Origin: Octopus sinensis
Lineage: Eukaryota
DNA: 64,000 bases
Direction: 5' to 3'
NCBI RefSeq assembly: GCF_006345805.1
Contig: NC_043000.1
Location: forward strand, 96,410,001-96,474,000
The first letter of the stretch is position 1. Every line of letters begins with the position of its first letter. Positions 7,288 through 10,200 of the stretch are shown here, in pieces. The position numbers were made by a program.

Positions 7288-10200
7288 CATCATCATCACC
7301 ATCATTATCATTTCCAGTATTCTACAAGAATGATTATAATTATGAACAAGTAAAATAATAAATTATTATTTTCCTTCTATATCATACTATATATAATTTT
7401 CTCTTCCACTACCGTAATCCACTGTTTCCTTTTTAATATCTTACTAAATCTACCTCAGCCCTCCTATAGTATAATGTTTTATTAATTTTATTACTTATTG
7501 TCTTCCATATATCAATATTTTGATAGTTGATTCTCAGCATTTGTACATATGTATTGTGTTGAAGAATGAAAGAAGCTTTTTTTGTACCTCTATTAATTCA
7601 TAAATTAATTTATACATTATATTATACACATTAATACAGACAAATAAAATAATTTATTATTTGTTATACACAAAAATTAATTGTCTTCTTGTGATAAAGA
7701 TTGTGAAATGATCATCGTTATATGGATGTGAGTATATGTATATTTCTTCCAATGTTCACTATCTTTCCCCTCGTTCTGGTCTAACGACCCTCCATGTTTG
7801 TTTTCATTTGGTTACCTTGCATGTCTCCACTGTCCTGTTTTTGTTCCCAACTTTGGCCCTCCATAAAATCCAAAATTTATTTTGGAAGTTATGGGAGCAA
7901 CTGTCTTTGAAGACTCATATTGTCGTTGAATGCATAAAATGAGGAGTAGATAGACAGCTGACAACTGATGAAGGTCGTTCTTTGTGTTACTTGTCCTGCT
8001 TTTAGTTTCTTTTCTCGTAACTTGCTTGTTTGCATATTTCATGTTATTTACAGTTGGTGATGTGTTGTACCTGTATATGCATATATATATATATATATAT
8101 ATATAATTACATTATATAAAAGGCTTAGTAAAATAAATTACTTTGCCACATACTGAACTCATTAGAAATAGCAGCTAAAAAAATTTTTTTAAAACTATTT
8201 CTAATACTTAAAGAAAATCTCTCTCATATAGTGTTTGCTCAAGTCAACTCACGAAAGTATGGGGGTAAAAACATTAAAAAATCACAAATGCAAGGTTATT
8301 TGAGAACGTACGTTTCTAGATTAGTCAAATCGACATTTCTTTCGTCAGCTCAGAACTCCTTGATTCGGATTTGGGAACACTGAAAGTGGGAGCATACCCT
8401 TTTGGCTTCTTCTTCTCACTTCTGAAGATCTGCTCGAACTATCAGTGCTAGCAATTCAAAATTGCAAGCGAAGAATTCTGCTCTCCCCTTTCCACCAGCG
8501 TGGGTTAAAATTGGTAAACACTATGTTTTATCGGTAAAAACCGAAGCATTAAATAGAGAGAAATAAATTATAGTTTCAACAATTGAGGGTAAAACTAATT
8601 AATTATTAATCAATTTCACCAAGTATTCAGTATGTAAAGGGACCATTTAAGGCGAATTCAAATTATTACATTATATAAAAGGGCTTAGTAAAATAAATTA
8701 CTTTGCCACATACTGAACTCATTAGAAATAGCAGCTAAAAAAATTTTTTTAAAACTATTCTAATACTTAAAGAAAATCTCTCTCTATAGTGTTTGCTCAA
8801 GTCAACTCACGAAAGTATGGGGGTAAAAACATTAAAAAATCACAATGCAAAGGTTATTTGAGAACGTACGCTTCTAGATTAGTCAAATCGACATTTCTTT
8901 CGTCAGCTCAGAACTCCTTGATTCGGATTTGGGAACACTGAAAGTGGGAGCATACCCTTTTGGCTTCTTCTCACTTCTGAAGATCTGCTCGAACTATCAG
9001 TGCTAGCAAATTCAAAATATGCAAGCGAAGAATTTCTGCTCTCCCCTTTCCACCAGCGTGGGTTAAAATTGGTAAACACTATGTTTTATCGGTAAAAACC
9101 GAAGCATTAAATAGAGAGAAATAAATTATAATTTCAACAATTGAGGGTAAAATTAATTAATTATTAATCAATTTCACCAAGTATTCAGTATGTAAAGGGA
9201 CCATTTAAGGCGAATTCAAATTATTACATTATATAAAAGGGCTTAGTAAAATAAATTACTTTGCCACATACTGTTATTTTTACTAAGCCCTTTTATATAA
9301 TGTAATAATTTGAATTCGCCTTAAATGGTCCCTTTACATACTGAATACTTGATGAAATTGATTAATAATTAATTAATTTTACCCTCAATTGTTGAAATTA
9401 TAATTTATTTCTCTCTATTTAATGCTTCGGTTTTTACCGATAAAACATAGTGTTTACCAATTTTAACCCACGCTGGTGGAAAGGGGGAGAGCAGAAATTC
9501 TTCGCTTGCATATTTTGAATTTGCTAGCACTGATAGTTCGAGCAGATCTTCAGAAGTGAGAAGAAGCCAAACGGGTATGCTCCCACTTTCAGTGTTCCCA
9601 AATCCGAATCAAGGAGTTCTGAGCTGACGAAAGAAATGTCGATTTGACTAATCTAGAAACGTACGTTCTCAAATAACCTTTGCATTTGTGATTTTTTAAT
9701 GTTTTTACCCCCATACTTTCGTGAGTTGACTTGAGCAAACACTATATGAGAGAGATTTTCTTTAAGTATTAGAATAGTTAAAAAAAAATTTTTTTAGCTG
9801 CTATTTCTAATGAGTTCAGTATGTGGCAAAGTAATTTATTTTACTAAGCCTTTAATATGTAATAATTTGAATTCGCCTTAAATGGTCCCTCTCTACATAC
9901 TGAATACTTGGTGAAATTGATTAATAATTAATTAATTTTACCCTCAATTGTTGAAATTATATATATATATATATATAATATATATGCCTATATATTATTT
10001 ATATTATATGCTAGCAGTATAGCCCGGCATTGCCCGGTATGAAGTTAGGATTATTAAGCTAATCAAGCGCTTTATTTCAAACCAAACTAAGTAAGACTGA
10101 CGTCAAATTTGAGCAAAATCCGCTGAAATTGGTAAACATTTGGCTGAAAATGGGTGCCAGACAATTTGATTGGGAAATCCCATAAGGAATCAGTTTATCA

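What the first reader, a model, noticed from the sequence alone, without database searches (positions are those of the whole stretch)
8103..9961. Non-coding ~560-nt hammerhead-ribozyme repeat (retrozyme-like) in an AGMO intron
Seen: ORF-less units repeated at 560/558-bp period and then inverted, in a (TA)n tract, one type I hammerhead motif per unit. Established: Penelope-like elements carry minimal type I hammerheads in tandem/inverted terminal repeats, and metazoan non-LTR retrozymes are tandem hammerhead repeats processed into small linear/circular RNAs (described monomers are mostly shorter, roughly 170-400 nt as I recall). Inference: a non-autonomous ribozyme-processed retroelement family with an unusually long monomer; cleavage-to-cleavage unit would be ~558 nt (minus strand ~8862 to ~8305). 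I do not know of it being described in cephalopods.
Basis: partly seen in the sequence, partly recalled or inferred. Interest (0 to 1): 0.88.

Follow-up and report, generated by a model that had tools for sequence, protein, structure and literature searches.

The report
Octopus hammerhead-ribozyme repeat in AGMO intron
A 558-base non-coding repeat in an octopus gene intron carries a small hammerhead-ribozyme motif and looks like a passenger retroelement copied by Penelope-like elements, which is a known kind of element but one I found no description of in cephalopods.

Summary
Window 8105-9961 holds two full direct units (560 and 558 bp), a 51-bp start of a third, then 684 bp of the same unit inverted. 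The block lies between (TA)n tracts and has no frame of 90 aa or more. Each unit carries a type I hammerhead-like motif. Three of the four copies in the window keep the full core; unit B reads GAAG instead of GAAA.

A second, ~60-65% identical family member lies at 16668-17387, also in (TA)n and with the same period and the same end positions. It keeps the hammerhead core at the same unit position, with compensatory changes in helix II. Across the whole unit, 19 predicted pairs change on both sides and stay paired.

The motif has the Penelope-like "minimal" architecture: short helix I, long helix II, and a palindromic helix III that favours a dimer. No Rfam hammerhead model detects it, and an A/A pair replaces the usual G10.1-C11.1 contact.

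The tandem-plus-inverted layout in a microsatellite matches published PLE insertions. The best reading is a PLE-mobilised non-autonomous element (non-LTR retrozyme type). The 558-nt monomer is within published ranges. This is a new member of a known kind. Self-cleavage, RNA circles, copy number and the autonomous partner remain untested.

The parts
8081..8105 (.). Left (TA)n flank of element 1
   Evidence: TRF finds period 2, 12.5 copies, 100% matches; sequence read.
8105..8664 (-). Element 1, unit A (560 bp). The ribozyme-sense strand is the minus strand.
   Evidence: nhmmer E 2e-187.
8295..8360 (-). Hammerhead-like motif of unit A with an intact core (CUGACGA, GAAAC, GUU). Predicted cleavage is between 8305 and 8304.
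   Evidence: (94.9 bits to my own model, which was built from it).
8665..9222 (-). Element 1, unit B (558 bp)
8853..8918 (-). Hammerhead-like motif of unit B. Its core is mutated: GAAG in place of GAAA (position 15.1). The nominal cleavage site is between 8863 and 8862.
   Evidence: It fails the descriptor.
9223..9273 (-). Start of a third direct unit (51 bp). This is the 5' end of the long arm in ribozyme sense.
   Evidence: blastn 100% over 51 nt; nhmmer.
9274..9277 (.). 4-nt filler at the head-to-head junction
   Evidence: Sequence read. The arms of inverted repeat I2 are separated by 26 nt.
9278..9961 (+). Inverted arm, about 1.22 units. It is in ribozyme sense on the plus strand, and its outer end falls at alignment A1 column ~100 (AUUAUA).
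9612..9677 (+). Hammerhead-like motif of the inverted arm with an intact core. Predicted cleavage is between 9667 and 9668.
9958..10009 (.). Right (TA)n-rich flank of element 1
   Evidence: TRF; sequence read.
16668..17353 (-). Element 2: a diverged family member with 1.23 direct units and period 555-558. Its left end falls at the same unit position as element 1's.
   Evidence: 59-60% identity counting gap columns, 64.5% over ungapped columns; nhmmer E 3e-139.
16857..16928 (-). Hammerhead-like motif of element 2 (CUGAUGA, GAAAC, GUC). Predicted cleavage is between 16867 and 16866.
17354..17387 (+). Short inverted tail of element 2. It consists of 22 nt that are the reverse complement of 17129-17149 with one mismatch, followed by a 12-nt repeat of its own start. 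(TA)n follows.
   Evidence: Sequence read.
16610..16667 (.). Left (TA)n flank of element 2. The right (TA)n flank lies at about 17388-17433.

Best explanation
The block is one insertion of a short, non-coding retroelement family of an octopus. The family belongs to the kind called metazoan non-LTR retrozymes, which are non-autonomous relatives of the terminal repeats of Penelope-like elements (PLEs).

Proposed cycle:
1. A tandem copy is transcribed on the ribozyme-sense strand. Here that is the minus strand, which is also the AGMO sense strand.
2. Hammerhead motifs of neighbouring units pair through their palindromic helix III (ACGUACGU) into a double hammerhead. They cut after GUU or GUC and release a 558-nt RNA.
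3. That RNA folds into a heavily paired branched rod and may be circularised by a cellular ligase.
4. A PLE reverse transcriptase/GIY-YIG endonuclease supplied in trans nicks a (TA)n tract. The target's 3' end anneals to UAUAAU-like stretches of the RNA and primes copying of a circular or multimeric template. This gives more than one unit.
5. The other side of the break primes on a second UAUAAU site and gives the inverted arm. The two arms therefore meet head to head.

What is shown: the anatomy, the conserved core, the covarying helices, the conserved whole-unit fold, the (TA)n targets and the shared end positions. What is inferred: transcription, cleavage, circularisation, the PLE enzyme, and the microhomology priming.
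For: 1. Two independent insertions of the family lie in the window (8105-9961 and 16668-17387). They are 59-65% identical. Both lie in (TA)n, both have a period of about 558, and both lack a shared ORF. The one 95-aa frame in element 2 has no Pfam match.

2. All fixed core letters (CUGA-GA, GAAA, U16.1) are kept between the families, and the cleavage site sits about 200 nt into the unit in both. Of 14 helix pairs, 94.6% of cells are paired, against 20-47% when the partner is slid. Two pairs show compensatory changes: AU to GC and CG to GC.

3. My descriptor gave 3 hits in the window and 0 hits in each of 200 shuffles.

4. The architecture matches the PLE minimal hammerhead as described in PMC4209133 (text read). 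Helix I is 4-6 bp, helix II is long, there is an extra nucleotide after position 9, and positions 15.2-16.2 plus loop 3 are palindromic.

5. The fold favours a dimer. The monomer hammerhead model scores -3.9 and -9.4 kcal/mol, against MFEs of -7.8 and -13.5. The double-hammerhead model scores -22.4 and -30.7, against dimer MFEs of -24.1 and -32.5, and it is below twice the monomer MFE.

6. The 558-nt RNA has an MFE of -142.4 kcal/mol with z = -5.4 (0 of 100 shuffles as good). The antisense strand gives -122.5 with z = -4.1.

7. The consensus fold of the two families has 151 pairs, of which 19 have changes on both sides. Shuffles give 4.7 +/- 1.9 (0 of 500 reach 19), and slid controls give 1-3.

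8. The layout matches published PLE insertions: a partial tandem plus an inverted 5'-truncated copy upstream, a short tail, and a microsatellite target. PMC8557442 (passages) gives this as typical of PLE insertions. It names (TA)n as the bias in Naiads and reports a microsatellite bias in Neptune.

9. Octopus genomes hold many Penelope-like families (PMC13282606 and PMC8967140, passages read), so a partner enzyme is plausible.

10. GC content is 0.32-0.34, which agrees with the low GC given for retrozymes in PMC7229834.
Against: - No Rfam hammerhead model matches, even at E<=10 on slices of about 90 nt.
- The base pair next to the core is not G10.1-C11.1. In both families an A lies on each side of helix II, giving an A/A pair. 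PMC4209133 lists G10.1-C11.1 as a highly conserved trait.
- Helix II is interrupted by a 3x3 internal loop.
- As a monomer the hammerhead fold is not the MFE. In the whole-unit consensus fold, helix I is replaced by other pairings.
- Unit B has GAAG in the core, and element 2 holds only one motif. Neither locus is likely to release a unit-length RNA.
- The hammerhead region is not more conserved than the unit average: 0.57-0.67 in 30-column windows, against 0.73-0.87 for two other blocks.
- The covariation rests on only two lineages, and the whole-unit structure was predicted from the same alignment.
- No RT or GIY-YIG frame was found in the 20 frames tested, out of 119 frames of 90 aa or more.
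- The insertion ends do not coincide with the cleavage site. Cleavage is therefore not needed to explain the ends.
- Published PLE hammerheads cleave poorly in vitro (PMC4209133).
Confidence: 0.72

Rival explanations
1. The repeat is a PLE-type passenger element, but the hammerhead-like motif no longer cleaves, or never did. On this view the motif is an inherited relic or serves another role, such as protein binding, and the element spreads from uncleaved multimeric transcripts.
For: - No Rfam hammerhead match.
- An A/A pair replaces G10.1-C11.1, and helix II carries an internal loop.
- The hammerhead fold is not the monomer MFE.
- The insertion ends lie about 200 and 280 nt from the cleavage site.
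- The motif region is only averagely conserved.
- PMC8557442 notes that Naiad PLEs thrive without hammerheads.
- PMC4209133 reports low in vitro activity for PLE motifs.
Against: - All 11 fixed core letters survive at about 64% background identity. The rough chance of that is 0.645^11, about 0.008 (my arithmetic).
- Both helix II stems show compensatory changes.
- The palindromic helix III is kept in both families despite sequence change.
- The A/A pair is itself conserved, not decayed.
Confidence: 0.3
2. The two loci are independently deleted remnants (terminal-repeat arrays) of full-length autonomous PLEs. They are not members of a dedicated 558-nt non-autonomous family.
For: The 2026 preprint 10.64898/2026.07.22.740005 finds that retrozymes group with PLE terminal repeats. 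No genome-wide data are available here to show that the 558-nt form is the one that propagates.
Against: - Two families that differ at 35-40% of positions have the same unit length (558-562) and the same unit boundaries. Independent deletions would not reproduce this.
- The repeat period equals the whole element, with nothing between the units.
- A whole-unit RNA fold is conserved.
Confidence: 0.12
3. The inverted arm, or the whole tandem/palindrome, is a DNA-level product. It would be either replication slippage and fold-back at a fragile (TA)n tract, or a long-read assembly artefact. No RNA intermediate is involved and the hammerhead is accidental.
For: The 209-bp arms next to the centre are 100% complementary, as palindromic read artefacts and fold-back repairs can be. 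(TA)n tracts are unstable.
Against: - Away from the centre the arms are 93-99% complementary, not identical.
- The outer end of the inverted arm falls at a different unit position from the left end, so the block is not a simple palindrome.
- A second diverged copy in another (TA)n has the same left end and an inverted tail ending within 10 columns of the same position.
- The core and fold are conserved, and 0 of 200 shuffles give such a motif.
Confidence: 0.05
4. It is a SINE-like element or satellite mobilised by a LINE, or a DNA transposon (Helitron, MITE), rather than by a PLE.
For: The window holds a mariner-type transposase fragment. The palindrome centre gives weak hits to MITE-derived miRNA hairpin models.
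Against: - There is no poly(A) or simple 3' tail, no terminal inverted repeats at the outer ends, and the two ends differ.
- There is no TC...CTRR Helitron end (ends read; the Helitron end rule is recalled).
- The miRNA hits are all far below gathering score and lie on the perfect hairpin.
- A tandem plus an inverted 5'-truncated copy is the published PLE signature (PMC8557442).
Confidence: 0.04

Closest known systems
Metazoan non-LTR retrozymes (Cervera & de la Pena 2020, PMC7229834; Li, Clavereau & Pollet 2026 preprint 10.64898/2026.07.22.740005)
   Same: Head-to-tail repeats without an ORF, each with one type I hammerhead. GC content is low (0.32-0.34), the monomer RNA is heavily self-paired, and the element is a presumed passenger of PLE enzymes. 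A mollusc example (mussel) is already published.
   Different: - The monomer is 558 nt, against the 170-400 nt stressed in the 2020 paper. It is still inside the 51-972 bp range of the 2026 preprint.
- The motif is of the minimal, dimer-type PLE form rather than the efficient canonical invertebrate form.
- The array is short (2.1 units) with an inverted arm.
- Expression and circles are not shown here.
- I found no cephalopod case in print.
Minimal hammerheads in the terminal repeats of Penelope-like elements (Cervera & de la Pena 2014, PMC4209133)
   Same: Short helix I, long helix II, an extra nucleotide after position 9, and a palindromic 15.2-16.2/loop 3 that implies action as a dimer. Pairs of motifs on opposite strands 100-700 bp apart are reported there too.
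   Different: - An extra A also precedes G12, so an A/A pair replaces the G10.1-C11.1 contact.
- Helix II carries a 3x3 internal loop.
- No RT/EN ORF lies between the repeats.
PLE insertion architecture and microsatellite targeting (Craig, Yushenova, Rodriguez & Arkhipova 2021, PMC8557442)
   Same: A partial tandem, an inverted 5'-truncated copy upstream, a short tail at one end, and insertion in (TA)n so that no target duplication can be read.
   Different: In that paper the (TA)n bias is stated for Naiads, which lack canonical hammerheads and are only remnants in cephalopods. Here a hammerhead-bearing element sits in (TA)n. That fits better with a Neptune-like or Penelope/Poseidon-like partner, which could not be identified here.
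Newt satellite 2 / amphibian dimer-type hammerhead repeats (Forster et al. 1988, as cited in PMC4209133 and PMC7229834)
   Same: A 2-bp helix III with a palindromic loop. The double-hammerhead model is far more stable than the single one.
   Different: Those are long satellite arrays of about 330 nt in vertebrates. This is a dispersed, short array in an octopus intron.

Membership tests
Hammerhead ribozyme, type I | CUGANGA box | tested here: met
   4 of 4 copies: CUGACGA three times and CUGAUGA once.
Hammerhead ribozyme, type I | GAAA box with an A15.1-U16.1 pair, and a cleavage triplet ending in H (not G) | tested here: met
   3 of 4 copies have GAAA; unit B has GAAG. The triplets are GUU three times and GUC once.
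Hammerhead ribozyme, type I | Three helices around the core with helix I open, supported by covariation | tested here: met
   14 pairs with 94.6% of cells paired, 2 compensatory pairs, and slid controls at 20-47%. Only two independent lineages are available.
Hammerhead ribozyme, type I | G10.1-C11.1 pair directly next to A9 and G12 | tested here: not met
   In both families an A follows CUGANGA and an A precedes GAAA. The first Watson-Crick pair of helix II is one step further out: A-U in element 1 and G-C in element 2.
Hammerhead ribozyme, type I | Match to a curated covariance model (the Rfam hammerhead families) | tested here: not met
   No hammerhead family matched at gathering score over 64 kb, at E<=10 over 3 kb, or at E<=10 over 86- and 92-nt slices.
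Hammerhead ribozyme, type I | Site-specific self-cleavage | not testable with these tools
   This needs in vitro transcription of monomer and dimer constructs.
PLE minimal hammerhead (PMC4209133) | [quoted passage not shown] | tested here: met
   Helix I is 4 contiguous bp in element 1 and 6 bp in element 2. Helix II is 3+3 or 3+4 bp around an internal loop, and an extra A follows position 9.
PLE minimal hammerhead (PMC4209133) | Palindromic 15.2-16.2 and loop 3; a dimeric active form | tested here: met
   ACGUACGU is a perfect 8-nt palindrome in element 1. CAGACUG in element 2 is palindromic except at its centre. The double-hammerhead model lies within 2 kcal/mol of the dimer MFE. Activity itself was not tested.
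PLE minimal hammerhead (PMC4209133) | Location in the terminal repeats of an RT/GIY-YIG-coding element | not testable with these tools
   No eukaryotic genome collection is available. No RT or GIY-YIG domain was found in the 20 frames tested, out of 119 frames of 90 aa or more in the window.
Metazoan non-LTR retrozyme (PMC7229834) | Head-to-tail repeats, each with a type I hammerhead, with no ORF, LTR, PBS or PPT, and with low GC | tested here: met
   2.1 direct units plus 1.2 inverted units. No frame of 90 aa or more. GC is 0.32. PBS and PPT were not searched for.
Metazoan non-LTR retrozyme (PMC7229834) | Monomer of about 150-450 bp | tested here: not met
   The unit is 558-560 bp. It is within the 51-972 bp range of the 2026 preprint.
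Metazoan non-LTR retrozyme (PMC7229834) | Highly self-paired monomer RNA | tested here: met
   MFE -142.4 kcal/mol, z = -5.4, 0 of 100 shuffles as good. The fold is conserved between the two families.
Metazoan non-LTR retrozyme (PMC7229834) | Expressed as linear and circular monomer RNA | not testable with these tools
   No transcriptome data are available here.
PLE-type insertion (PMC8557442) | Partial tandem, an inverted 5'-truncated copy upstream, and a microsatellite target | tested here: met
   In element 1 the arms meet head to head at 9273/9278. Element 2 has a 34-nt inverted tail. Both elements are flanked by (TA)n on both sides.

The most novel reading that the evidence does not exclude
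Octopods may carry a lineage-specific retrozyme family with a non-canonical hammerhead. In this motif a conserved A/A layer sits between the core and helix II, and the motif works only as a dimer. The 558-nt structured RNA would be produced from within host introns, driven by host-gene transcription: both long arms here are co-oriented with AGMO. Its (TA)n specificity would be set by RNA-to-target microhomology at UAUAAU sites rather than by the endonuclease. The head-to-head arms would also give the AGMO pre-mRNA a near-perfect hairpin of about 680 bp, a possible ADAR substrate in an animal with heavy RNA editing.
Probability: 0.15. Interest if true: 0.55.

Novelty: new member of a known kind. 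Interest (0 to 1): 0.35.

Why it matters
If confirmed, it would extend hammerhead-bearing passenger retroelements to cephalopods. It would also supply a natural core variant (A/A in place of the G10.1-C11.1 contact) for testing what the minimal dimer-type hammerhead tolerates.

The two copies share end positions in UAUAAU stretches. That gives a concrete, testable idea of how PLE-type copying chooses (TA)n targets and makes inverted arms.

It does not change the current picture of retrozymes or PLEs. The element class, its layout and its ribozyme type are all in print.

Tried and rejected
- Rfam searches at four scales found no hammerhead family. The only hits in the region were sub-threshold miRNA hairpin models on the perfect palindrome centre at 9192-9337 and on (TA)n, plus snoRNA-box noise. 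I rejected these as artefacts of a long hairpin.
- My own covariance model R1 found one further weak match, 61800-61863 (+), at 17.5 bits and E 0.0086. Its core reads UUGAGAA, three helix pairs are broken, and nhmmer with the whole-unit profile finds no family homology there. I rejected it as chance or as too decayed to call.
- nhmmer and blastn found no other family copy in the window.
- I looked for a paralogous empty site for element 2, because repeats at 16408/18855 and at 17492/19274 suggested a duplicated segment. The sequence between them is unrelated, so there is no empty site.
- I looked for a PLE reverse transcriptase or GIY-YIG endonuclease in the window. There was none in the 20 frames tested, out of 119 frames of 90 aa or more. 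Shorter frames were not tested.
- My first dimer model, with only helix III intermolecular, was topologically invalid. I replaced it with the nested double-hammerhead model.
- Helitron, MITE and LINE-SINE readings were rejected on the ends.
- Lunse, Weinberg & Breaker 2017 (PMC5785218), the paper most likely to list such core variants, is not held. What I say of it comes from its title as cited in PMC6765202.
- Supplementary tables and figures of PMC4209133, PMC7229834 and PMC8557442 were not seen. They may list cephalopod hits or A/A variants.
- Genome-wide copy number, adjacency to PLE ORFs and Dfam/Repbase matches stayed unchecked. The genome-contig scan (bacteria and archaea) was not used because it is irrelevant.
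- The AGMO gene was checked exon by exon only.
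Full report
**What is there.** Window 8105-9961 is a composite repeat. Unit A (8105-8664, 560 bp) and unit B (8665-9222, 558 bp) are direct. A third unit starts at 9223-9273. After a 4-nt filler, 9278-9961 is the same unit in reverse complement, about 1.22 units long. The units are 96.1-97.8% alike in alignment A1. The arms next to the centre are 100% complementary over 209 nt. (TA)n lies on both sides. No stop-free frame of 90 aa or more lies inside the block. 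GC is 0.32, against 0.375 for the window.

**The hammerhead.** On the minus strand of units A and B, and on the plus strand of the inverted arm, lies one motif. It has helix I, then CUGACGA, then A, then a helix II of 3 bp / 3x3 internal loop / 3 bp, then A, then GAAAC-GUAC-GUU, then the return strand of helix I.
- Predicted cleavage is at 8305|8304, 8863|8862 and 9667|9668.
- Unit B reads GAAG instead of GAAA. Position 15.1 is changed, which from memory of the mutational literature is a damaging change.
- A descriptor of my own found three places in the window and none in 200 dinucleotide shuffles. It required CUGANGA, a helix II of at least 3 bp allowing one mismatch next to the core, GAAA, a 2-bp helix III, UH, and a helix I of at least 4 bp.
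- Against this, Rfam 15 gives no hammerhead family at gathering score over 64 kb, at E<=10 over 3 kb, or at E<=10 over slices of about 90 nt.

**A second, diverged copy.** blastn and nhmmer with the unit found one more family member, at 16668-17387 (sequence).
- It lies in another (TA)n tract and has 1.23 direct units with a period of 555-558.
- It ends with a 34-nt inverted tail.
- It is 59-60% identical to element 1 counting gap columns and 64.5% over ungapped columns.
- Its minus strand carries CUGAUGA ... GAAAC-AGACU-GUC at the same unit position, with cleavage at 16867|16866.

Comparing the two families over the 14 hammerhead pairs gives the following:
- 94.6% of cells are paired, against 20-47% when the partner is slid.
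- Two pairs in helix II show compensatory changes (AU to GC, CG to GC).
- Two helix I pairs change U-A to U-G.
- The A on either side of helix II is kept in both families.
- The helix III region stays palindromic even though its letters differ.

This is only two lineages, so the statistics are thin: 20 of 500 shuffles reach the observed counts. Still, all fixed core letters survive at about 64% background identity.

**Type of hammerhead.** The text of PMC4209133 describes the minimal hammerheads of PLE terminal repeats. [quoted passage not shown] They act as dimers and have low activity in vitro. Three of these traits are met here. The G10.1-C11.1 contact is not met, because an A/A layer intervenes.

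Energy evaluation agrees with a dimer. The single hammerhead model is worse than the MFE: -3.9 against -7.8 kcal/mol for element 1, and -9.4 against -13.5 for element 2. The nested double hammerhead scores -22.4 and -30.7, within 2 kcal/mol of the dimer MFE and below twice the monomer MFE.

**The whole RNA.**
- The 558-nt ribozyme-sense RNA folds to -142.4 kcal/mol with z = -5.4. The antisense strand gives -122.5 with z = -4.1.
- RNAalifold on the two families predicts 151 pairs, 19 of them with changes on both sides.
- Counting these pairs gives 95.5% of cells paired. The 19 compensatory pairs compare with 4.7 +/- 1.9 in shuffles (0 of 500 reach 19) and with 1-3 in slid controls.
- The structure was derived from the same alignment, so this leans in its favour. 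The margin is nevertheless large.
- The most conserved blocks are not the hammerhead. They are A1 columns 16-90, which include an AT-rich hairpin with two compensatory pairs, and A1 columns 511-555.

**Ends and layout.** In ribozyme sense both arms of element 1 start at the centre and run outward, so they meet head to head.
- The long arms of both elements end within about 4 nt of the same unit position: ...UAUAUAAUGUAAU in element 1 and ...UUAUAAAUUAAUACUU in element 2.
- The inverted arms of both elements end within A1 columns 94-103, inside AUUAUAAU or AAUAUAAUG.
- All these ends abut (TA)n.
- None of the ends is at the cleavage site.

I infer that the (TA)n target's 3' ends anneal to UA-rich stretches of an RNA longer than one unit, either circular or multimeric, and prime reverse transcription from both sides of the break. 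PMC8557442 (passages) describes exactly this layout for PLEs. The layout is a partial tandem, an inverted 5'-truncated copy upstream, a 30-40 bp tail, and a microsatellite bias. It names (TA)n as the bias for Naiads and links the bias to the endonuclease linker in Neptune.

**Context.** Frames at 3051-3299 (-) and 13705-13890 (-) match Pfam FA_hydroxylase. The first of these finds alkylglycerol monooxygenases, with the best identity (94%) to Octopus sinensis.

tblastn of that named protein gives six exon matches on the minus strand:

| Protein residues | Window coordinates |
|---|---|
| 1-44 | 26707-26576 |
| 41-85 | 18781-18647 |
| 86-135 | 16048-15899 |
| 136-170 | 13863-13759 |
| 171-207 | 6796-6686 |
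| 202-249 | 3272-3129 |

Element 1 is therefore in the intron between the 13.8-kb and 6.8-kb exons. Element 2 is in the intron between the 18.7-kb and 16.0-kb exons. The long arms of both elements are in ribozyme sense on the gene's strand. I built no joined spliced model. The source is an octopod, and I did not try to name it further.

**Comparison with print.**
- PMC7229834 (passages) defines metazoan non-LTR retrozymes. They are tandem repeats with type I hammerheads, without an ORF, of low GC, expressed as 170-400 nt linear and circular RNAs. It includes a mussel example and speaks of circles of 150 to more than 1000 nt.
- The 2026 preprint 10.64898/2026.07.22.740005 (abstract and Results) gives consensus lengths of 51-972 bp and derives retrozymes from PLE terminal repeats. 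A 558-nt unit is therefore not exceptional.
- Octopus repeat surveys report many Penelope-like families and do not contain the words hammerhead or ribozyme (PMC13282606 and PMC8967140).
- The search for "hammerhead ribozyme" with "octopus" gave 5 papers holding both terms, of which 4 were listed. Judged by title and abstract start, none is about a cephalopod hammerhead.
- The search for retrozyme/hammerhead/cephalopod found only PMC8557442 with all three terms.

I therefore found no description in cephalopods. Supplements and subscription papers were not seen.

**Verdict.** This is a PLE-type, hammerhead-bearing, non-coding passenger retroelement: a new member of a known kind with a minor core variant. 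The claim of an unusually long monomer fails. Activity, circles, copy number and the partner element remain open. This particular locus has one damaged core, so it is probably a decaying copy rather than a source.

Noticed in passing
window 54939-55652 (+): A stop-free frame of 237 aa matches the Mos1-type HTH_48 domain (E 5e-18) and the Transposase_1 partial DDE domain (E 2e-21). This is a mariner-family transposase fragment.
   Followed up: no
window 61800-61863 (+): Weak match (17.5 bits, E 0.0086) to my hammerhead model, with a degenerate core (UUGAGAA) and broken helices. nhmmer finds no homology to the 558-nt unit here. It is probably chance.
   Followed up: partly
window 16408-16472 and 18855-18919; 17492-17704 and 19274-19492: Two pairs of dispersed repeats, 82-86% alike, lie on either side of element 2 and again about 1.8-2.4 kb further on. 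The first pair starts with (ATC)n-TTTAA. The sequence between the second copies is unrelated, so they give no empty site for element 2. They are likely SINE-like elements.
   Followed up: partly
window 8600-9961: The AGMO gene is read on the minus strand. Its pre-mRNA would therefore contain both arms of element 1 and could form a near-perfect hairpin of about 680 bp (93-100% complementary). In an octopus this is a plausible ADAR editing substrate.
   Followed up: no
window 31114-31848 (+): The longest stop-free frame in the window (244 aa) starts with a (CMYV)n-like low-complexity run. It has a sub-threshold C2H2 zinc-finger match (zf-met, E 0.006, below the cut-off).
   Followed up: no
window 63329-63931 (-): A 200-aa frame matches Pfam DUF2615 (E 6e-07, above the cut-off) next to histidine- and threonine-rich low-complexity runs.
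   Followed up: no
window 13100-14430: A dense low-complexity region translates as His-, Thr-, Ile- or Pro-rich runs in several frames on both strands. It lies immediately beside the AGMO exon at 13863-13759.
   Followed up: no
window 10087-10440: An approximately 184-bp direct repeat of two to three copies, 75-83% alike, lies just right of element 1 (families D7, D9 and D12). It is unrelated to the 558-nt unit.
   Followed up: no
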